Notes under the pieces: model-generated
The model's database searches: none
Told to the model about the DNA's origin: nothing
Seen by the model: only the letters and a program-made list of their open reading frames with translations
Shown here: piece after piece, positions 6,016-24,143 of the stretch
How the letters are laid out: the number at the start of each line of letters is the position of its first letter
Position numbering within the stretch: the stretch's first letter is position 1
Program-made: the position numbers and the translations under genes
Source of the DNA: a virus
Taxonomy: Duplodnaviria; Caudoviricetes
Virus record (IMG/VR): IMGVR_UViG_2910013374_000001
Coordinates: 1-64,000 of that record
Strand: one strand, 5' to 3'
Length of the DNA: 64,000 nt

Positions 6016-7535
6016 TGAGACTTCACCAAAACACGATCGACCAAGTCCGGGATCGCGCTCAGATCCTCGATCAGTTTTCACAGGAGAACCTCAAGAAGGT
6101 GGGCTATGAGTTCGCCTCCAAGTGCCCCTGGCACGACGATCGTCGCCCCAGCCTCAGCATCAGCCCGCAGAAAAACTTCGCTTATTGCCACGTCTGCGCT
6201 CGAGGCGTGGATGCCATCGGCTGGGTTCAGGACCGCCAAGGCCTGAGCTTCTCCGAGGCTGTGATGAACCTGGCGGGCCAGTACAACATCGAGGTCCAGG
6301 CCGCTGACGAGGAGGACGCCAAGAAGTTCGAGGAAGAACGTCTTGAGAGAGCTTCCTTGTTTCGCCAGCGCGAACAGCAGCAAGAGCAATTCAGCGAGCG
6401 GATCTGGGATTCACCAGGCCTCGAGTATTTGCTCGGCCGTGAGTTGACAGCTGAGACGATCGAGGAATGGGGCATCGGCTTCAACGGAAATCGGGTGATG
6501 TTTCCTCTTTGTGATCCTCAAGGCCGGACCGTTGGCTTCACTGGCCGGGTCCTGGATGACTCCAAGCCCAAGTACAAGAACTCTCAGAACGACGCGATCT
6601 ACCAGAAGGCCAACCTTGTCTTCGGTTTGCACAAGGCACGCGAGCGGATCATGGCCACCAGCCAGGTGGTCATCACCGAGGGCCAGTTCGACGTGGTCCG
6701 TCTCTGGCAAGAAGACGTGCGCAATGTGATCGCGGTGTCTGGTTCCTCCCTGACCAGGGGCATGATCGAGAACCTGGTCCGCACCACCCGCGTGACTCAG
6801 GTCGTCCTCTGCTTCGACGGAGATCTTGGCGGGCAGAAGGCCGCCGAACGTGCGATCAACGAACTGCAGGAGTTCGCCCTTCGTGGTGAGCTGGATCTGC
6901 GGATCCTGGTGATGCCTGACACCCTCGACCCCGCTGACTGCGCTGAGGTTTTCCCCTTCCTTCTTGAGGAGGCGGTCTCCTGGGTGGAGTACATGTTCGA
7001 GCGTGCGGTCGAGAAGATCGACCTGACTGACCCGTATGCGATCACCACCGCAGAGCGTGGAGTCAAGCGAATCCTCCAGATCCTCCCGAAAGGCGGACTT
7101 CGCGAGTGGGTGCAGCGCAGGGCTAAAGAGGTCCTGAAGGCCATCCCTGACGTGAAGCCGGCCAAGGTTCAGACCCAGAAGCAGATCGACAGGTGTTCCT
7201 GGGCTGAGCGTCGTGCGATCCGTCTCTATTTGATGGATCAGGGGTGCAGGCCTGCTCTTGCTGAGATCAGCTACACGGACCCGAGGATGCAGCAAGCCTG
7301 GAAGATCATCGAAGTCCTGGAGGGAATGGGGCAAGACCGGATGCTGCGTATGGCATTCGCTGCGGTGATCCAGAAGCTCGAGCGTGATCTCTCTGATGAG
7401 CTGTCTTCGCTGTGCAACCCGATCAAGGAGGTCGCCCGCGTGATCGAGGCGAACCCCGTGAATGAACTGGAGGGAGCGATGGCCGTCCTGCTTTCCGAAT
7501 GCTGTTCGAGTTCGAACCCTGACCAAGACCGGTAG
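6015..7535 (+). CDS. dnaG: DNA primase
   Basis: CHC2 zinc finger CPWHDD...CHVC, KYKNS, TOPRIM TEGQFDV and CFDGD; ATG overlaps the dnaB stop. Confidence 0.95.
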   Translation: MRLHQNTIDQVRDRAQILDQFSQENLKKVGYEFASKCPWHDDRRPSLSISPQKNFAYCHVCARGVDAIGWVQDRQGLSFSEAVMNLAGQYNIEVQAADEEDAKKFEEERLERASLFRQREQQQEQFSERIWDSPGLEYLLGRELTAETIEEWGIGFNGNRVMFPLCDPQGRTVGFTGRVLDDSKPKYKNSQNDAIYQKANLVFGLHKARERIMATSQVVITEGQFDVVRLWQEDVRNVIAVSGSSLTRGMIENLVRTTRVTQVVLCFDGDLGGQKAAERAINELQEFALRGELDLRILVMPDTLDPADCAEVFPFLLEEAVSWVEYMFERAVEKIDLTDPYAITTAERGVKRILQILPKGGLREWVQRRAKEVLKAIPDVKPAKVQTQKQIDRCSWAERRAIRLYLMDQGCRPALAEISYTDPRMQQAWKIIEVLEGMGQDRMLRMAFAAVIQKLERDLSDELSSLCNPIKEVARVIEANPVNELEGAMAVLLSECCSSSNPDQDR

Positions 7536-13949: not shown

Positions 13950-14434
13950 TGACTTTGCCCAAAGGCAGGCCTACTACCAGCACCGAGCGGATGCGGCTTA
14001 AAAAGCTGCGTGACAAGGGCGAAGCTGCGCCCGTCAAGACCTGCTCGGTCTGCGGCCAGCGGCTGAAGAAAGGCGCGGGTGCTAACCGTGCCTACGACAT
14101 GGGCCTTTGCTACACCCACTGGAGGCAGACCCCAGAAGGCAAGGCAGTCAGAAGAGCGAAGCAGATCAAGAGTGAGGTCTGGGGAATTTGGTACTACGGA
14201 GGAGAGCCGGCGGAGGGTTTCGCCAGCCTTCGCAAAGCGTTGACAGCATCAGTCCAGGTTGGTGCTGAGAACCACCCGGTCTTTGTGGTTTGGAGTGATG
14301 GCCGGGTGACCGTGCACTTCGCATTGACTCACCGAGCCTCGAGAGGCCTGGTCCCTGAGGAGGGTGACGAGATCGTGGACGGCTTTGAAGAGTTCAAAGA
14401 GCAAGTCCCCCAGAACCTCAAGACCTGGTTCTAA
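13949..14434 (+). CDS. hypothetical protein with a zinc-ribbon-like CxxC...CxxH motif
   Basis: CSVC...CYTH; start overlaps the exonuclease stop. Confidence 0.55.
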   Translation: MTLPKGRPTTSTERMRLKKLRDKGEAAPVKTCSVCGQRLKKGAGANRAYDMGLCYTHWRQTPEGKAVRRAKQIKSEVWGIWYYGGEPAEGFASLRKALTASVQVGAENHPVFVVWSDGRVTVHFALTHRASRGLVPEEGDEIVDGFEEFKEQVPQNLKTWF

Positions 14435-14649
14435 GTCGAACAGGGCCTCGTAGCTTGTGCCACACCGCACTGCTCCGACATGTTCGTGGTCATCGCAACC
14501 ATCCGAGGCAAGAGGCCAGACATCTATGGCCCGTTTTCCTCGCCCCTGCAAGCAGCCGACTGGGCGCAGGAGCATTTCGAGGAAACTCAGCAGGCCTGTG
14601 AAATCCGGCCCCTGACCACCGCCATCGTCTACGGCGAAGAGGGTCTGTG

Positions 14650-17924: not shown

Positions 17925-17986
17925 CCTTCTAAGTTATCAGTGTTCGTATCACGACTGGTAGCTTGTCACAACTCTTAGTGGCATCT

Positions 17987-18781
17987 ATGGGCGTGCGACC
18001 CCTTGGCTTCAAGCTCTCCAAGGCTCAGGCCCTTAAGGCACAGGAGAACATGAACCTGGCTCGCCGTGAGGCCTGGCGCTTCCAGCGTCGGACCGACATG
18101 ACCTACGACGACCTGGAATCGGTTGCCTTCATCGGCCTGATGAAGGCCTGCTTCAAGTTCGACGTTGGCAGGGGCTGGAAGTTCTCCACCTATGCGGTGC
18201 CTGTGATCCGCGGGGAATTGCTGCACTACGTGCGCGATCACTCCTATTTGCTGAGGCTCTCTCACCGGATGCGTGAGAACTGGGTCAAGGGCAGGCGCTT
18301 CCTTGATCGAGGTCACACCGATCAGCAGGTCGCCGATGAGCTGAAGATCAAGCTCGCTGAGTGGCTCGACACCCGTCAGGCCTGCAGCGGTGCACCTCTT
18401 GAACTCAAGGAGAGCCTCCATGTTGCTGACAAGTCTTTGGAAGCCAAGGAGGACGACAGGCTCAGCCGCCTCGAGCTGGCCGTTCAGAAGTCCTGGTCAC
18501 GAATGGGAGAGGTCTTCGCCAAGAACCTCGCTGCTCACTACCGTTTCGACCACCTGCTGAAGCCACACGCCGCAGACACCTTCGTCTCCAACTCCCTGGC
18601 CATTTACGACGGCCGGGATATTTGCTGGATGGACTACGGCTGCACGCCTGAAGCATCCCGCCCTACCTACGGGATCCAATCCGCCAGCGCCCAGGTGGAT
18701 GACGCCGGGATCTTCGTGATCGAATCGCAGGATCTGGGCAACGGCAGAGAGCAGCGTTCTCTCTTTGAGGACTACCTGTAA
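17987..18781 (+). CDS. second sigma factor (SigF/SigB-like group 3, divergent C-terminus)
   Basis: ENMNLAR..AW, DDLESVAFIGLMKA..KFD..RG.KFSTYAVPVIRGELLHYVRD. Confidence 0.88.
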   Translation: MGVRPLGFKLSKAQALKAQENMNLARREAWRFQRRTDMTYDDLESVAFIGLMKACFKFDVGRGWKFSTYAVPVIRGELLHYVRDHSYLLRLSHRMRENWVKGRRFLDRGHTDQQVADELKIKLAEWLDTRQACSGAPLELKESLHVADKSLEAKEDDRLSRLELAVQKSWSRMGEVFAKNLAAHYRFDHLLKPHAADTFVSNSLAIYDGRDICWMDYGCTPEASRPTYGIQSASAQVDDAGIFVIESQDLGNGREQRSLFEDYL

Positions 18782-20399: not shown

Positions 20400-20511
20400 T
20401 CCTGTTCGACTTGGAACAAGCAAGACACCAGGAGGCCTTCGGGCCTCTTTTTTGTGTCTGTTCGGAATCGAACAGGGACTCGTAGCTTGTCCTGTCGACG
20501 CATCTCACACC

Positions 20512-20601
20512 ATGAAACGCACCTCAATCGGGCACGGCAGGCGCAAGCGCGGCTCCTACGGCAGGGGCAAGAAAAAGTACCGCGGCCAAGGACGTCGCTG
20601 A
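20512..20601 (+). CDS. 29-aa highly basic peptide
   Basis: MKRTSIGHGRRKRGSYGRGKKKYRGQGRR directly after a TCGTAGCTTGT motif; below the ORF-track cutoff. Confidence 0.6.
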   Translation: MKRTSIGHGRRKRGSYGRGKKKYRGQGRR

Positions 20602-20628: not shown

Positions 20629-20820
20629 ATGACTGCTCCCGGACAACGCACCAAAAAGGACTGCAGTTGCCCTCCCTCTTGCGCCTACTGCGCACAGACC
20701 GGCACCTGTACTTGCCCTGATGATCACGCCCCAGTCACTGAGCTCACTTTCGAGAGGAAGTTCGAGCGCTTCTGCGAGGAAAACGAAGGCGCCATCGAGT
20801 GCCGCATTTATGAGGACTGA
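20629..20820 (+). CDS. cp12: CP12-like protein with a Cys-rich N-terminus
   Basis: C-terminal FERFCEENEGAIECRIYED matches the CP12 C-x8-C-RIY(E/D)D tail. Confidence 0.75.
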   Translation: MTAPGQRTKKDCSCPPSCAYCAQTGTCTCPDDHAPVTELTFERKFERFCEENEGAIECRIYED

Positions 20821-20823
20821 CCC

Positions 20824-21090
20824 ATGAGCACTGAATTCACTCAAGACCCTTATGGGTATGAGGGCGTCGATGTCTACACATTTGACGTCAACTTCGACAA
20901 GAAGCTCGGCTTCGACGTCTCGGAATCCTCTTCTGCTTCGCAGACGCGACTCGACGGTGAATGGTTCGTCCTAGCCACGCCCGACGAGATCTTCGGCCCG
21001 TATGCCACGAAGGCAGAGGCTGAAGCCCTGCTCACAAAAGACCGCTTCAACTCTGACGAGTCGATGGTCTTTCAGCTCTCCTACCCCTGA
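20824..21090 (+). CDS. hypothetical protein
   Basis: 88-aa ORF in the cp12-thioredoxin run. Confidence 0.55.
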   Translation: MSTEFTQDPYGYEGVDVYTFDVNFDKKLGFDVSESSSASQTRLDGEWFVLATPDEIFGPYATKAEAEALLTKDRFNSDESMVFQLSYP

Positions 21091-21095
21091 CGCCC

Positions 21096-21389
21096 ATGTT
21101 CAAGCTCTACGCCATCGTCAACTACCAGACGTGCGGCTGGTGCAAGAAGTTCCGCCCGGTTTTGCAAAGCAACACCAGGGCCATGAACCCACGCAGCCAG
21201 GCCATGGTCGAGGAGGTTGATCTCTCGACACCAGCAGGTAAAGCCAAAGCATCCGAGCTGGGCTTCTCCGGAGGCATCCCTTGCTTGATCGCCACCAAGG
21301 GCGAAACACAGGTCTACAACAAGCCTGGCTATCAGGACGGCAAGGCATTCGCGCAGACCTTGTTCACCCTCTTCTCCACTTACGTCTAA
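21096..21389 (+). CDS. thioredoxin/glutaredoxin-like protein
   Basis: CGWC active site and GIP cis-Pro motif; adjacent to the RNR. Confidence 0.8.
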   Translation: MFKLYAIVNYQTCGWCKKFRPVLQSNTRAMNPRSQAMVEEVDLSTPAGKAKASELGFSGGIPCLIATKGETQVYNKPGYQDGKAFAQTLFTLFSTYV

Positions 21390-21463
21390 CCAGTACTGGT
21401 TCGAACACGTACACCGCCTCGGCCTAGCCGGGGCTTTCTTTTCCCAATTCCTTATCCCACCCG

Positions 21464-24067
21464 ATGCAGATCGTTCTTATTTCAGCTCCAGACCGTTGCG
21501 AGCCATGCCGGGACATGGATGCGCGTATTCAGGAAGTTCTCGAACTCAAGCCCCTCACATCCGCTGGAATTCGCATCATCCACGCTGATCGTCAGGAAGC
21601 TGAGGCCGCTAAGTACAACGCCAAGGTCATCCCAACAATCCTTCTCGTAAACGAGGGAGAGGAGCTTTTCCGCGCCGAGGGCCGGATCACCTCTGTTTTG
21701 TTTGAGACCTTGGTCGATGCCGTCCTTTTGGGCACCTATGACCCCGAGGAATTCCGCGAGCACGCACCCTCGGGAAATGTGGTCTTCTATCGCACCTACA
21801 GCCGCCGCACCGAAAGCGATCAGCGCGAGACTTTCAAGGAAGCCATCCATCGCGTCGCCAAGGACATCAAGGAGCTTGGCCAGTTCACAGAAGATGAGGA
21901 AGCCCTTGTCCTGAAGCAGGCTTTGGGGCAGCACGCTCTCCCTTCAGGCCGTTGGCTTTGGGTTGGTGGCACCCAATGGATCAAGCAACAGGAGAATTTC
22001 TCCGGCGCCTACAACTGCACGAGCACCAACGTCGACAGCCTTGAAGCTTTCGGCCTGATGATGGAGCTCGCGATGATGGGCTCAGGCACAGGCGCCATCC
22101 TCGAGAAGGACATGGTGGCCAAGCTTCCCAAGATCCTGAACCGCCTCAAGATCACGAAGGTCACAGAGCTGGGCACAGATGGTGGTGACGCCGAAACCCG
22201 GATGATCGGGAAGTTCAACGAAGCAAGCGCACGAATCATCGTTGGCGACTCCCGCAAGGGATGGGTCTCTGCTTATCAGCGACTGATCGAACTGGCCTAC
22301 GACCCGAATCTCAGAGCCAGGCTGAACAAGGACGGCAACGACTGCCTCAAGGTGATCATCGATCTCTCTCAGGTTCGCCCCGCTGGCCGCAAGCTCAAAG
22401 GCTTTGGCGGAACATCCAACCCCGTCAAGTTGGGCGACATGTTCAAGAAGGTGGCCTCGCTGCTCTCCCAGGCCCAGGGCCGCAAGCTCTCAGCCGTTGA
22501 GTGTTGCCTGCTGATCGATGAAGCGGCTGCCTGCATCGTGGCCGGCAATATCCGCAGGTCTGCAGGGATGCGTCAGTTCTCCTGGGATGACCTGGAGGCC
22601 AAGGACGCCAAAGACAACCTGTACACGCAGGACGCCAAGGGCAACTGGAAGGTGGACCCGATCAAGGAAAACCTGCGCATGGCGAATCACACCCGCTGCG
22701 CTCACACCAAACCAAGCCTCGAGGACGTCAAGGCTGCGGTGACCAAGCAGTTCTTCTCAGGAGAAGGCGCCATCCAGTACGTGCCCGAGGCCATCGCCAG
22801 GTCTTCCGCTGATCTCTTCGAGACACGCGACGACATGGAGGCATTCATGGAGATGTACGAGCAGGGCTATGGCAAGGACTTTCTCTGCTCCCTGATCGAT
22901 GTCGAACGCCCCGACATGCACAAGGAAGAGAAGGAAGAAGAGTTGACCGATCGCTTGCAGCGCTATGGACTCAACCCTTGCGGTGAGATCCTTGGCCACG
23001 ACTTCCACTGCAACCTGGCCGAGGTGCACCTCAACACCATCGACCCCCGCAACATCGACGCCCAGATCGAGGCCTTCCAAGCCGCAGGCCTACAGGTCGC
23101 AGCTCTTCTCCATCACGAGTTCGCCGTCGACCGTTATGCCTACAGCCGGATGATGGACCCCATCGTTGGCGTCAGTTTCACCGGCCTGTTCGATTTCTTC
23201 GTGCACGCCTTTGGTGAGCCTTGGCTCGCCTGGATGATGGCTGGCCGCCCCAATACTCAGGAGGGCTATGAGTTCATCGAGAAAGAGAAGGGCTATCTCG
23301 GCATCTGGCGCCGTGCTGTTCACACCACGGTCAAGGAGTACTGCGAGCGTCATGACCTGAAGGTGCCTAACCGCACGACAACAGTTCAGCCCGCAGGCAC
23401 AAAGAGCCTCCTTACAGGAGCCTCCTCTGGCTGGCACCCTCCCAAAGCGCAGCGTTTCATCCGCCGGATCACTGTTGGGGCAAACGATCCCGTCGCCTTG
23501 GCTGCAATGGAGTACGGCTTCTCGGTGATTCCAGCTCAGAGCGCACGCGATGAGGAGGGCAACCTGCTCGACGACATCAACGATCCACGCTCGACCGAGT
23601 GGCTGATTGAGATCCCGACTGAGGTTTCATGGGCCAACATCCCAGGCGTTGATCAGCACGATCTGTCTCAGCTGTCAGCCGCGGCCCAGTTCGGTCTGTA
23701 CATGTCAGTTCAGACCCACTACACCGAGCACAACACCTCAGCCACCATCGAGTTCCGTGAGCACGAGATCGACCAGCTGGCCGAACTCATCCATGGCCAC
23801 ATGGGCAAGGGCTACATCAGCGCCGCTTTGCTTGCGCGGTTTGACGCCAATGCCACCTTCCCCCGTCTTCCCTTTGAACCGATCAGCAAAGAGGTGTACG
23901 ACGAGATGGTTGAGCGCGTCTCGATCCGTGGTGAGGGCTGCGAGGACTTCCACCAGGCCCTGGCCAAGCACGACAGCGCTGACTTCGAGCTGACAACCTC
24001 AGCTGCTTGCACGTCAGCCGCCTGCATCGCATCAGCGGACAGGGCAGAAGCAGAAGGCAAGGTTTGA
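21464..24067 (+). CDS. nrdJ: class II (adenosylcobalamin) ribonucleotide reductase with an N-terminal thioredoxin domain
   Basis: VFYRTYSRR, PSGRWLW, YNC, VAGNIRRSA, NPCGEI, CNLAE, TVQPAGTKS and C-terminal ACTSAAC; N-terminal CEPC...IPT thioredoxin fold. Confidence 0.93.
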   Translation: MQIVLISAPDRCEPCRDMDARIQEVLELKPLTSAGIRIIHADRQEAEAAKYNAKVIPTILLVNEGEELFRAEGRITSVLFETLVDAVLLGTYDPEEFREHAPSGNVVFYRTYSRRTESDQRETFKEAIHRVAKDIKELGQFTEDEEALVLKQALGQHALPSGRWLWVGGTQWIKQQENFSGAYNCTSTNVDSLEAFGLMMELAMMGSGTGAILEKDMVAKLPKILNRLKITKVTELGTDGGDAETRMIGKFNEASARIIVGDSRKGWVSAYQRLIELAYDPNLRARLNKDGNDCLKVIIDLSQVRPAGRKLKGFGGTSNPVKLGDMFKKVASLLSQAQGRKLSAVECCLLIDEAAACIVAGNIRRSAGMRQFSWDDLEAKDAKDNLYTQDAKGNWKVDPIKENLRMANHTRCAHTKPSLEDVKAAVTKQFFSGEGAIQYVPEAIARSSADLFETRDDMEAFMEMYEQGYGKDFLCSLIDVERPDMHKEEKEEELTDRLQRYGLNPCGEILGHDFHCNLAEVHLNTIDPRNIDAQIEAFQAAGLQVAALLHHEFAVDRYAYSRMMDPIVGVSFTGLFDFFVHAFGEPWLAWMMAGRPNTQEGYEFIEKEKGYLGIWRRAVHTTVKEYCERHDLKVPNRTTTVQPAGTKSLLTGASSGWHPPKAQRFIRRITVGANDPVALAAMEYGFSVIPAQSARDEEGNLLDDINDPRSTEWLIEIPTEVSWANIPGVDQHDLSQLSAAAQFGLYMSVQTHYTEHNTSATIEFREHEIDQLAELIHGHMGKGYISAALLARFDANATFPRLPFEPISKEVYDEMVERVSIRGEGCEDFHQALAKHDSADFELTTSAACTSAACIASADRAEAEGKV

Positions 24068-24143
24068 AGCTGTTCTAGTTCGAACAGGGACTCGTAGTTT
24101 GTAGGGCTCGCGCAGGCGGGCCCTTTTTCTTTCCTATTCATTC

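What the first reader, a model, noticed from the sequence alone, without database searches (positions are those of the whole stretch)
20629..20820. CP12 tail fused to a metallothionein-like Cys cluster
Seen: the C-terminus is the CP12 motif (C-x8-C-RIYED), but the usual N-terminal AWD_VEEL core is replaced by C-x-C-x3-C-x2-C-x5-C-x-C followed by a His. Established: cyanophage CP12 inhibits the Calvin cycle, and the C-terminal loop binds GAPDH. Inference: a metal- or redox-gated GAPDH inhibitor, encoded two genes from a thioredoxin and the RNR, coupling reductant diversion to dNTP synthesis. I do not know of this architecture being described.
Basis: partly seen in the sequence, partly recalled or inferred. 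Interest (0 to 1): 0.72.

Follow-up and report, generated by a model that had tools for sequence, protein, structure and literature searches.

The report
Cysteine-headed, PRK-armless phage CP12
A P-SS2-like cyanobacterial siphovirus encodes a small, conserved protein that keeps only the GAPDH-binding tail of the Calvin-cycle inhibitor CP12 and replaces the PRK-binding half with an undescribed six-cysteine module, giving a new, testable variant of a known phage trick.

Summary
Window 20629-20820 (+) is a real 63-aa gene. Its last 21 residues are a complete CP12 GAPDH-binding domain: the C-x8-C pair, the Glu before the second Cys, and RIYED. The Pfam CP12 score is 21.9 bits, just under the 22.7 cut-off. 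All 12 relatives scanned also hit CP12, and the family profile finds solved CP12 peptides at E 9e-6.

The PRK-binding half with AWD_VEEL is absent. In its place is C-x-C-P-P-x-C-x-Y-C-x5-C-x-C. Five of these Cys are invariant and the sixth is present in 19 of 20 relatives. The following His is not conserved (15 of 20). The head matches nothing in Pfam or in PDB sequences, so "metallothionein-like" is only a description and metal binding is inferred.

All relatives with known context lie in the same siphovirus module: exonuclease, CP12-like gene, thioredoxin, thioredoxin-fused class II RNR. Type phage P-SS2 has an unannotated orthologue with a shorter four-Cys head.

The most likely function is a GAPDH-only, NADPH-sparing inhibitor whose Cys head binds a metal and supplies stability, avidity or redox gating. 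An earlier first-reader note of this scan (e1-5610848) saw the same family on other DNA. I class it as a new variant of a known kind.

The parts
20629..20820 (+). 63-aa CP12-like gene (stop codon included)
   Evidence: ORF. There are 20 relatives at 43-79% identity. Pairwise dN/dS is below 1.
20662..20733 (+). Cys-rich head, residues 12-35 (C-x-C-P-P-x-C-x-Y-C-x5-C-x-C ... A-P)
   Evidence: C14, P15, C18, Y20, C21, C27, C29 and P35 are invariant in 20 sequences; C12 is present in 19 of 20. The head alone has no Pfam or PDB match. AF2 predicts a hairpin at 19-21/26-28 at low confidence.
20755..20817 (+). [quoted passage not shown]
   Evidence: Pfam PF02672 scores 21.9 bits against profile positions 50-70. 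The family profile hits 3zdf_C at 9.3e-6 and 6gfo_E at 1.4e-5. It aligns one-to-one with T. elongatus CP12 residues 55-75, defined as the GAPDH-binding domain in PMC6800369.
20430..20449 (+). terminator-like hairpin closing the upstream exonuclease gene
20460..20490 (+). conserved 31-nt intergenic element, a possible promoter of the unit (GTTCGG, 17-nt spacer, TAGCTT)
   Evidence: Near-identical copies lie at 14428 and 24072. The palindromic core is enriched: 18 matches against 5.8 expected. Its function is inferred.
20512..20601 (+). 29-aa very basic micro-ORF, first gene of the unit
   Evidence: Its peptide is conserved in L004, L006 and L011. No family hit.
20824..21090 (+). 88-aa gene of unknown function that starts 4 nt after the CP12-like stop
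   Evidence: A homologue follows the CP12-like gene in L005, L006 and L011. It is absent in P-SS2.
21096..21389 (+). thioredoxin-like protein (CGWC)
   Evidence: Pfam Thioredoxin and Thioredoxin_2 hits are weak, E 0.005 and 0.0015. The P-SS2 gp010 orthologue is annotated as thioredoxin.
21416..21434 (+). terminator-like hairpin closing the unit
21464..24067 (+). class II ribonucleotide reductase with an N-terminal thioredoxin-like domain (neighbouring unit)
   Evidence: Pfam RNR-II_ins_dom, RNR_Alpha, and Thioredoxin at residues 11-78. The S-CBS2 rnr matches at the DNA level.

Best explanation
The gene encodes a chimeric mini-CP12 of P-SS2-like cyanosiphoviruses.

Tail (residues 43-63). This is a complete CP12 GAPDH-binding domain. 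Once C49-C58 forms its disulfide, it should insert into the NAD-bound active site of the host Calvin-cycle GAPDH (Gap2). Glu57 corresponds to the CP12 Glu that clashes with the 2'-phosphate of NADP(H). The predicted effect is to suppress NADPH-consuming reduction of bisphosphoglycerate.

Missing arm. The two-helix PRK-binding domain is gone, so the protein probably does not assemble the classical GAPDH-CP12-PRK complex.

Head. The 24-residue six-Cys head is most likely a small metal-thiolate module, holding Zn, Cu(I) or an Fe-S cluster. It would stabilise the peptide and perhaps dimerise it. Dimerisation could supply the avidity that PRK gives in the classical complex, or it could make inhibition sensitive to redox or metal state.

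Expression. The gene appears to be transcribed as one short unit with a phage thioredoxin, next to a thioredoxin-fused B12-dependent RNR. That fits diversion of reducing power towards dNTP synthesis.

What is shown and what is inferred. Shown: gene reality, tail homology, loss of the PRK arm, conservation of the head, and synteny. Inferred: GAPDH binding, metal binding, oligomerisation and physiological role.
For: Tail:
- Pfam CP12 scores 21.9 bits, E 3e-4.
- 12 of 12 relatives scanned hit CP12, best E 3.1e-5.
- The family profile hits crystallised CP12 C-terminal peptides 3zdf_C (9.3e-6), 6gfo_E and CBS-CP12 5nmu_A.
- Residues 43-63 align without gaps to T. elongatus residues 55-75, the GAPDH-binding domain. 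Both Cys, Glu69, Arg, Ile, Tyr and the terminal Asp are retained.
- The AF2 helix at 41-51 matches the two-turn helix of that domain.
- ESM Atlas nearest clusters are all CP12, scores 0.80-0.83, leads only.

Loss of the PRK arm:
- Only profile positions 50-70 match, against 3-70 in a myovirus CP12.

Head under selection:
- Five Cys, Pro15, Tyr20 and Pro35 are invariant in 20 sequences.
- Head dN/dS is 0.06-0.41.

Context:
- Terminator-like hairpins at 20430 and 21416 bracket the CP12-like gene, ORF88 and thioredoxin.
- The same gene order is found in L004, L005, L006, L011 and P-SS2.

Binary complex:
- In the binary GAPDH-CP12 complex, CP12 competes with NADP(H) and lowers activity; avidity in the ternary complex tightens binding (PMC6800369).
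Against: - The Pfam score is just under the gathering cut-off (21.9 against 22.7).
- The usual loop Pro (N-P) is Glu in most members, although 4 of 20 members and P-SS2 keep it.
- The head has no homologue with a known metal site. AF2 confidence is low, pLDDT 55. Metal binding therefore rests on Cys spacing and conservation alone.
- A co-transcribed thioredoxin could in principle reduce and inactivate the tail disulfide.
- The phage lacks talC, the usual partner of phage cp12.
- The P-SS2 orthologue has a degenerate ending (C-R-E-F-D-V) and only four head Cys. The family's constraints are therefore not uniform.
Confidence: 0.6

Rival explanations
1. The protein still shuts down both enzymes. 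The Cys head, as an anionic metal-thiolate knob, is an analogue of the acidic AWD_VEEL patch. It plugs the cationic PRK active site, so a ternary GAPDH-protein-PRK complex still forms.
For: Canonical CP12 uses an acidic patch to bind the positively charged PRK active-site cleft (PMC6800369). The head is flanked by acidic residues, and a Cys4-metal site would carry net negative charge (inference). Strong conservation of the head implies a specific partner.
Against: There is no sequence or predicted structural similarity to the two-helix PRK-binding domain. The PRK-contact residues (Trp33, Glu37, Glu38 equivalents) are absent. Tail-only mini-CP12s with no head at all exist in other phage contigs and metagenomes, so PRK engagement is dispensable for some CP12 derivatives.
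Confidence: 0.12
2. The head is the business end. The protein would be a small redox or metal protein, such as an Fe-S or Cu/Zn carrier or a thiol relay, serving the adjacent thioredoxin and B12-RNR system. The CP12 tail would act only as a redox-switched anchor or regulator, or would target a different NAD(P) enzyme.
For: The invariant core C-x3-C-x-Tyr-C has the spacing and aromatic residue of 4Fe-4S-binding radical-SAM motifs, and one member gives a weak Radical_SAM hit at E 0.35. The gene shares a terminator-bracketed unit with a thioredoxin and abuts a Trx-RNR fusion. Head dN/dS is as low as or lower than the tail's in several pairs.
Against: The tail is the most conserved stretch and retains every residue class needed for GAPDH binding. 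No Fe-S or metallochaperone family matches the head. The P-SS2 orthologue keeps the tail but has lost a third of the head.
Confidence: 0.15
3. The head Cys form disulfides rather than binding metal. This would be an expanded redox sensor, analogous to the N-terminal Cys pair of canonical CP12, that orders the peptide only under oxidising conditions.
For: CP12 is a conditionally disordered protein ordered by disulfides (PMC6800369; PMC3906501). AF2 gives low confidence for the whole chain, as expected for such proteins.
Against: Six Cys within 18 residues in CxC and CxxC spacing, with an invariant Pro-Pro/Gly turn, is more typical of metal-thiolate sites than of cytoplasmic disulfide switches (general knowledge, not tested). 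CxC pairs cannot easily form intramotif disulfides.
Confidence: 0.1
4. It is a decaying CP12 remnant or a chance ORF with no function.
For: The protein is short, scores below the Pfam cut-off, and has no Shine-Dalgarno sequence. No RNA data are available.
Against: Sixteen 90%-identity clusters plus metagenome and viral loci share invariant residues. dN/dS is as low as 0.05 at dS 0.5. The start and synteny are conserved. Motif co-occurrence is far above chance.
Confidence: 0.03

Closest known systems
T4-like cyanomyovirus CP12 (e.g. P-HM2, or SynMITS9220M01 gp17 = P0005)
   Same: Both are phage-encoded small proteins with the C-x8-C-R-I-Y-E-D GAPDH-binding tail. The presumed purpose is to inhibit the Calvin cycle and spare NADPH for dNTP synthesis (PMC3906501).
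   Different: Myovirus CP12 matches the whole Pfam domain (profile 3-70, 55 bits), including the PRK-binding half, and has no Cys cluster. This protein matches only positions 50-70 and carries a six-Cys head. It is in a siphovirus and is not accompanied by talC.
Cyanobacterial 'CP12-C' class (Stanley et al. 2013 classification, as summarised in PMC3906501)
   Same: Only the C-terminal Cys pair is retained. The N-terminal pair and the AWD_VEE motif are lacking.
   Different: The original paper could not be read here. Its description gives no Cys-rich N-terminal module. No relative of this family was found in 185,579 representative prokaryote genomes.
Tail-only mini-CP12s (53 aa in phage contigs L007-L010; P0018 44 aa; P0020 51 aa)
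   Same: They have the same tail (Pfam CP12 26.5-39 bits), no PRK-binding domain, and occur in phage or metagenome contexts.
   Different: Their N-terminal parts are Cys-free and unrelated. They show that the tail is a portable module, whereas the Cys head is specific to the P-SS2-like lineage.
Plant GAPDH subunit GapB C-terminal extension and cyanobacterial CBS-CP12 fusions
   Same: They set a precedent for grafting the CP12 tail onto another module to confer redox control. The GapB extension drives PRK-independent aggregation and inhibition of GAPDH (PMC6800369; PMC3906501). 5nmu_A is hit by the family profile.
   Different: Those are fusions to large folded domains in cellular organisms. 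Here the partner is a 24-residue Cys module in a phage protein. No longer fused forms were found.
Metallothioneins and small metal-thiolate modules (SmtA-type, fungal Cu-MT, zinc knuckles)
   Same: CxC and CxxC motifs are densely packed: 6 Cys in 18 residues.
   Different: No Pfam or PDB sequence match. The Tyr and Pro-Pro are invariant. Cys content of the whole protein is only 8 of 63. Metal binding is untested.

Membership tests
CP12 (Pfam PF02672), C-terminal GAPDH-binding domain | C-terminal Cys pair with 8 intervening residues | tested here: met
   C49-x8-C58. Both Cys are invariant in 20 relatives.
CP12 (Pfam PF02672), C-terminal GAPDH-binding domain | Glu before the second Cys (T. elongatus Glu69) and a C-R-x-Y-x-D ending | tested here: met
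   The protein has E57-C58-R59-I60-Y61-E62-D63. E57, R59, I60 and D63 are at least 90% conserved and Y61 is invariant. The alignment to 3zdf_C and 6gfo_E has no gaps. The role of Glu69 comes from PMC6800369.
CP12 (Pfam PF02672), C-terminal GAPDH-binding domain | Score above Pfam's curated gathering cut-off | tested here: not met
   21.9 bits against a 22.7 cut-off and 20.2 bits on the DNA. Only 21 of 70 profile positions can match. All 12 members hit at E<=3e-4, and the family profile finds solved CP12 chains at E 9e-6.
Canonical CP12 (N/C type) | Central AWD_VEEL motif in a two-helix PRK-binding domain | tested here: not met
   There is no alignment to profile positions 1-49, and no such motif appears in any of the 20 members. 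P0021 and P0005 show what a full match looks like.
Canonical CP12 (N/C type) | N-terminal Cys pair forming a helical-hairpin disulfide | tested here: not met
   The N-terminal Cys are arranged as CxC-x3-CxxC-x5-CxC, not as a single pair at a helix-turn-helix apex. AF2 predicts a beta-hairpin, not helices.
Canonical CP12 (N/C type) | Binds and inhibits GAPDH (and PRK) | not testable with these tools
Biochemistry is needed.
Metallothionein | Sequence membership in a metallothionein family | tested here: not met
   No Pfam family matches the whole protein at E<=1 or the head alone at E<=10, apart from noise. There is no PDB hit.
Metallothionein | Cys-rich CxC/CxxC clusters with few or no aromatic residues | tested here: inconclusive
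   CxC/CxxC density is met (6 Cys in 18 aa). However, Tyr20 is invariant inside the cluster and total Cys is 8 of 63.
Metallothionein | Binds multiple metal ions through thiolates | not testable with these tools
   Needs ICP-MS or spectroscopy.
Radical-SAM-type 4Fe-4S site | C-x3-C-x-aromatic-C motif within a partial TIM-barrel enzyme | tested here: not met
   The motif spacing is present (C14-x3-C18-x-Y-C21, invariant). The protein has only 63 aa, and just one member gives a Radical_SAM hit, at E 0.35. This is a resemblance of motif only.

The most novel reading that the evidence does not exclude
The six-Cys head assembles a shared metal or Fe-S cluster between two or more chains, producing a multivalent CP12 tail. 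That would cross-link or aggregate host GAPDH tetramers without PRK, as the GapB extension does in plants. Cluster assembly or loss would make Calvin-cycle shutdown responsive to oxygen, ROS or metal status, or to the phage's own thioredoxin. This would be a new way for a virus to gate host carbon fixation.
Probability: 0.15. Interest if true: 0.8.

Novelty: new variant of a known kind. Interest (0 to 1): 0.58.

Why it matters
- Phage CP12 is the textbook example of a virus throttling host carbon fixation, but it has been described for T4-like cyanomyoviruses with a full CP12 domain.
- This family shows that P-SS2-like siphoviruses, including temperate or prophage forms, carry their own version. 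The type phage's genome annotation lacks the gene.
- In this version the PRK arm has been exchanged for a conserved Cys module.
- It offers a natural experiment on what the GAPDH-only half of CP12 does in vivo.
- It also offers a compact, possibly metal- or redox-switchable GAPDH inhibitor. CP12-based surveys of viral carbon-metabolism genes that use the Pfam cut-off would miss it.

Tried and rejected
The long contigs holding P0009, P0015 and P0017 therefore could not be inspected.
- AF2 with 12 and with 20 sequences gave pLDDT 55. The Foldseek PDB search of that model returned only noise, as expected.
- ESM Atlas on the head alone gave no usable hit.
- The head-only profile against PDB and Pfam found nothing.
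- The search for longer fused forms found none, which is weak evidence.
- Genome-contig scan: no relative in representative prokaryote genomes. The first viral-contig scan found none. A second found one contig.
- The genome search 'relatives' is not available for a virus record.
- Sequencing runs: no RNA holder listed, and only marine DNA metagenomes with partial word shares.
- Stanley et al. 2013 (PMC3561022) is not held.
- An FTR-like CxC redox module was considered and dropped: no FeThRed_B or other hit in Pfam.
- A lipoprotein or secreted reading was considered and dropped: the window's protein has no hydrophobic N-terminus, and only three relatives have an amphipathic extension.

Full report
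**What is there.** Window 20629-20820 (+) is a 63-codon ORF.
- Cys lie at residues 12, 14, 18, 21, 27 and 29, giving C-x-C-x3-C-x2-C-x5-C-x-C, followed by His33.
- The protein ends with C49-x8-C58-R-I-Y-E-D.
- In a six-frame scan of the whole 64-kb window, a tail regex and a head regex each occur exactly once, both in this ORF. In 100 shuffles the mean counts were 0.07 and 0.

**The replicon.** The window is the first 64 kb of a 106,484-bp IMG/VR record classed as a provirus and estimated 99% complete.
- GC content is 55-62%.
- The only DNA-level phage match is the rnr gene of Synechococcus siphovirus S-CBS2.
- Gene order around the finding is that of the Prochlorococcus siphovirus P-SS2: terminase, sigma factor, exonuclease, thioredoxin, class II RNR.
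- An earlier agent's note names the host as Synechococcus sp. SYN20. I did not verify this.

**It is a real gene and a family.**
- Word-indexed and exhaustive HMMER searches, plus metagenome and viral contig scans, gave 19 relatives at 43-79% identity.
- These make 16 clusters at 90% identity in a 5.8-billion-protein collection.
- None is annotated and none has a precomputed Pfam domain.
- In the 20-sequence alignment A5, the invariant positions are M1, C14, P15, C18, Y20, C21, C27, C29, P35, F45, C49, G54, C58 and Y61.
- C12 is present in 19 of 20 sequences. His33 is at that column in only 15 of 20.
- Pairwise dN/dS on the five loci with DNA is below 1 everywhere. The head ranges 0.06-0.41 and the tail 0-0.78. 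For L005 against L006 it is 0.05 at dS 0.53.

**The tail is a CP12 GAPDH-binding domain.**
- Pfam CP12 aligns residues 42-62 to profile positions 50-70 of 70, at 21.9 bits and E 3e-4. This is 0.8 bits under the curated cut-off.
- All 12 members scanned hit CP12, best E 3.1e-5.
- A family profile finds solved CP12 chains as its top hits: 3zdf_C at 9.3e-6, 6gfo_E at 1.4e-5, CBS-CP12 5nmu_A at 1.2e-4 and 3b1j_C at 0.014.
- The alignment to T. elongatus CP12 is gap-free over its residues 55-75. McFarlane et al. define this stretch as the GAPDH-binding domain that inserts into the active site.
- Their Glu69 blocks the 2'-phosphate of NADP(H). It corresponds to Glu57 here and is at least 90% conserved in the family.
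- AF2 gives a helix at 41-51 (low-confidence model), which matches the two-turn helix of that domain.
- One difference is that the usual loop N-P is N-E in most members. Four members and P-SS2 keep the Pro.

**The PRK arm is missing.**
- Nothing aligns to profile positions 1-49 and there is no AWD_VEEL.
- A T4-like cyanophage CP12 (P0005) covers positions 3-70 at 55 bits. A canonical CP12 (P0021) covers 1-70 at 99.7 bits.
- According to PMC6800369, residues 1-52 form the two-helix PRK plug.

**The head is new.**
- Residues 12-35 have the consensus C-x-C-P-P-G/S-C-x-Y-C-A-x-T-G-x-C-x-C ... A-P.
- They have no match in Pfam or among PDB sequences, even at E 10, and none in the ESM Atlas.
- No longer protein carrying this head was found.
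- AF2 suggests a beta-hairpin at 19-21/26-28, but at pLDDT about 60-69.
- The invariant core C-x3-C-x-Tyr-C has radical-SAM-like spacing, and one member gives a Radical_SAM hit at E 0.35. I treat this as a motif resemblance only.
- "Metallothionein-like" is descriptive. Metal binding is a reasonable inference from six conserved, closely spaced cytoplasmic Cys, but it was not tested.

**Context.**
- Terminator-like hairpins at 20430-20449 and 21416-21434 bracket a short unit.
- The unit holds a conserved 29-aa basic micro-ORF (20512-20601), the CP12-like gene, an 88-aa gene of unknown function that starts 4 nt after its stop, and a CGWC thioredoxin (21096-21389).
- The next gene is a class II RNR with its own N-terminal thioredoxin-like domain.
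- A 31-nt element at 20460-20490 lies between the first terminator and the unit. Near-identical copies occur at 14428 and 24072. It has the geometry of a promoter: GTTCGG, a 17-nt spacer, then TAGCTT.
- The same gene order occurs in metagenome contigs L004, L005 and L006 and in a 99.5-kb viral contig, L011.

**P-SS2 orthologue.**
- P-SS2 has an unannotated ORF at the same position, directly upstream of its thioredoxin gp010 (L002:3959-4135).
- It has a shorter head (C-x-C-x3-C-x2-C) and a degenerate ending (C-R-E-F-D-V).
- It scores 22.1 bits on Pfam CP12 and 94.3% probability by hhalign to the family profile.
- The P-SS2 genome paper does not mention CP12.

**Other genes and genomes.**
- The phage record has no second CP12 and no transaldolase.
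- No relative was found in 185,579 representative prokaryote genomes.

**How it probably works.**
- Shown: the tail has every sequence feature of the CP12 module that docks into NAD-bound Gap2, and the PRK module is absent.
- Established (PMC6800369): in the binary complex, CP12 blocks the proximal sites, competes with NADP(H) and lowers activity. Avidity in the ternary complex makes binding resistant to NADP(H).
- Inference: the phage protein is a Gap2-only inhibitor that reduces NADPH drain into the Calvin cycle.
- Inference: its Cys head, probably a metal-thiolate module, stabilises the peptide. It may dimerise the peptide to replace the avidity lost with PRK, or it may make the switch depend on redox or metal state.
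- Its co-location with thioredoxin and RNR fits the NADPH-to-dNTP logic proposed for myovirus CP12 (PMC3906501), but this rests on gene order only.
- I put about 0.6 on this package. That breaks down as about 0.75 on GAPDH binding by the tail and about 0.6 on metal binding by the head.
- The rivals are a head that binds PRK by another mode, a head-centred redox or metal function serving Trx and RNR, and a pure disulfide sensor. Each is listed with its refuting result.

**Comparison and novelty.**
- Tail-only CP12 derivatives exist. They include the cyanobacterial CP12-C class and Cys-free mini-CP12s in other phage contigs and metagenomes (L007-L010, P0018, P0020).
- CP12 tails are also grafted onto GapB and CBS domains.
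- What has not been described, as far as the searched literature shows, is the conserved six-Cys head and a CP12 derivative in siphoviruses.
- I class it as a new variant of a known kind.
- An earlier first-reader note of this scan (e1-5610848) recorded the same architecture on the contig that I fetched as L011. It had no follow-up.

**Limits.**
- No interaction modelling was possible.
- There is no neighbourhood look-up for most relatives.
- No RNA evidence is available.
- No confident structure was obtained.

Noticed in passing
window 20512-20601 (+); also L004 about 472, L006 about 495, L011 about 4654: This is a conserved, extremely basic micro-ORF (29 aa here, with core T-S-I-G-x-G-R-R-K-R-G-S ... 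Y-R-G-Q-G-R). It sits between the exonuclease gene and the CP12-like gene in four loci. No family hit, and it is not seen at the equivalent place in P-SS2.
   Followed up: partly
window 14428-14458, 20460-20490, 24072-24102 (weaker copies near 7504, 24988, 33141, 41799, 45898): A roughly 31-nt intergenic element (GTTCnnnnTCGAAC followed by AGGGaCTCGTAGyTTGT) lies directly after stop codons or terminators. The palindromic core is enriched: 18 matches against 5.8 expected. Its geometry fits a -35/17-nt/-10 (TAGCTT) promoter, possibly read with the phage's own sigma factor (17963-18781).
   Followed up: partly
L002:3959-4135 (NC_013021.1 about 6197-6373): This unannotated 58-aa ORF in type cyanosiphovirus P-SS2, between gp009 and thioredoxin gp010, is a CP12-tail protein with a four-Cys head. 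It scores 22.1 bits on Pfam CP12 and 94% by hhalign to the family. The reference annotation misses this gene.
   Followed up: yes
L007:2499-2687, L008:1987-2175, L009:5881-6069, L010:1522-1674: A different, Cys-free 53-aa tail-only CP12 (Pfam 26.5 bits) lies in another phage type, next to a Gp80-like fibre protein, a lysozyme/M15 peptidase and a LAGLIDADG endonuclease. The CP12 tail is evidently a portable module in several phage lineages.
   Followed up: partly
window 20824-21090 (+): An 88-aa gene (N-terminal motif P-Y-G-Y-E-G-V-D-V) starts 4 nt after the CP12-like stop. It follows the CP12-like gene in L005, L006 and L011 but is absent in P-SS2. It has no family and could be a partner.
   Followed up: partly
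L004 513-821, L006 379-843, L011 4484-5029: Relatives carry an extra ORF of about 100 aa (motif A-V-H-Q-L-W-L-L-R-R) between the basic micro-ORF and the CP12-like gene. This window lacks it.
   Followed up: no
window 21464-24067 (+): The class II RNR has an N-terminal thioredoxin-like domain (CEPC; Pfam Thioredoxin at residues 11-78, 22.3 bits, just below cut-off). The L005 and L011 orthologues also have it.
   Followed up: partly
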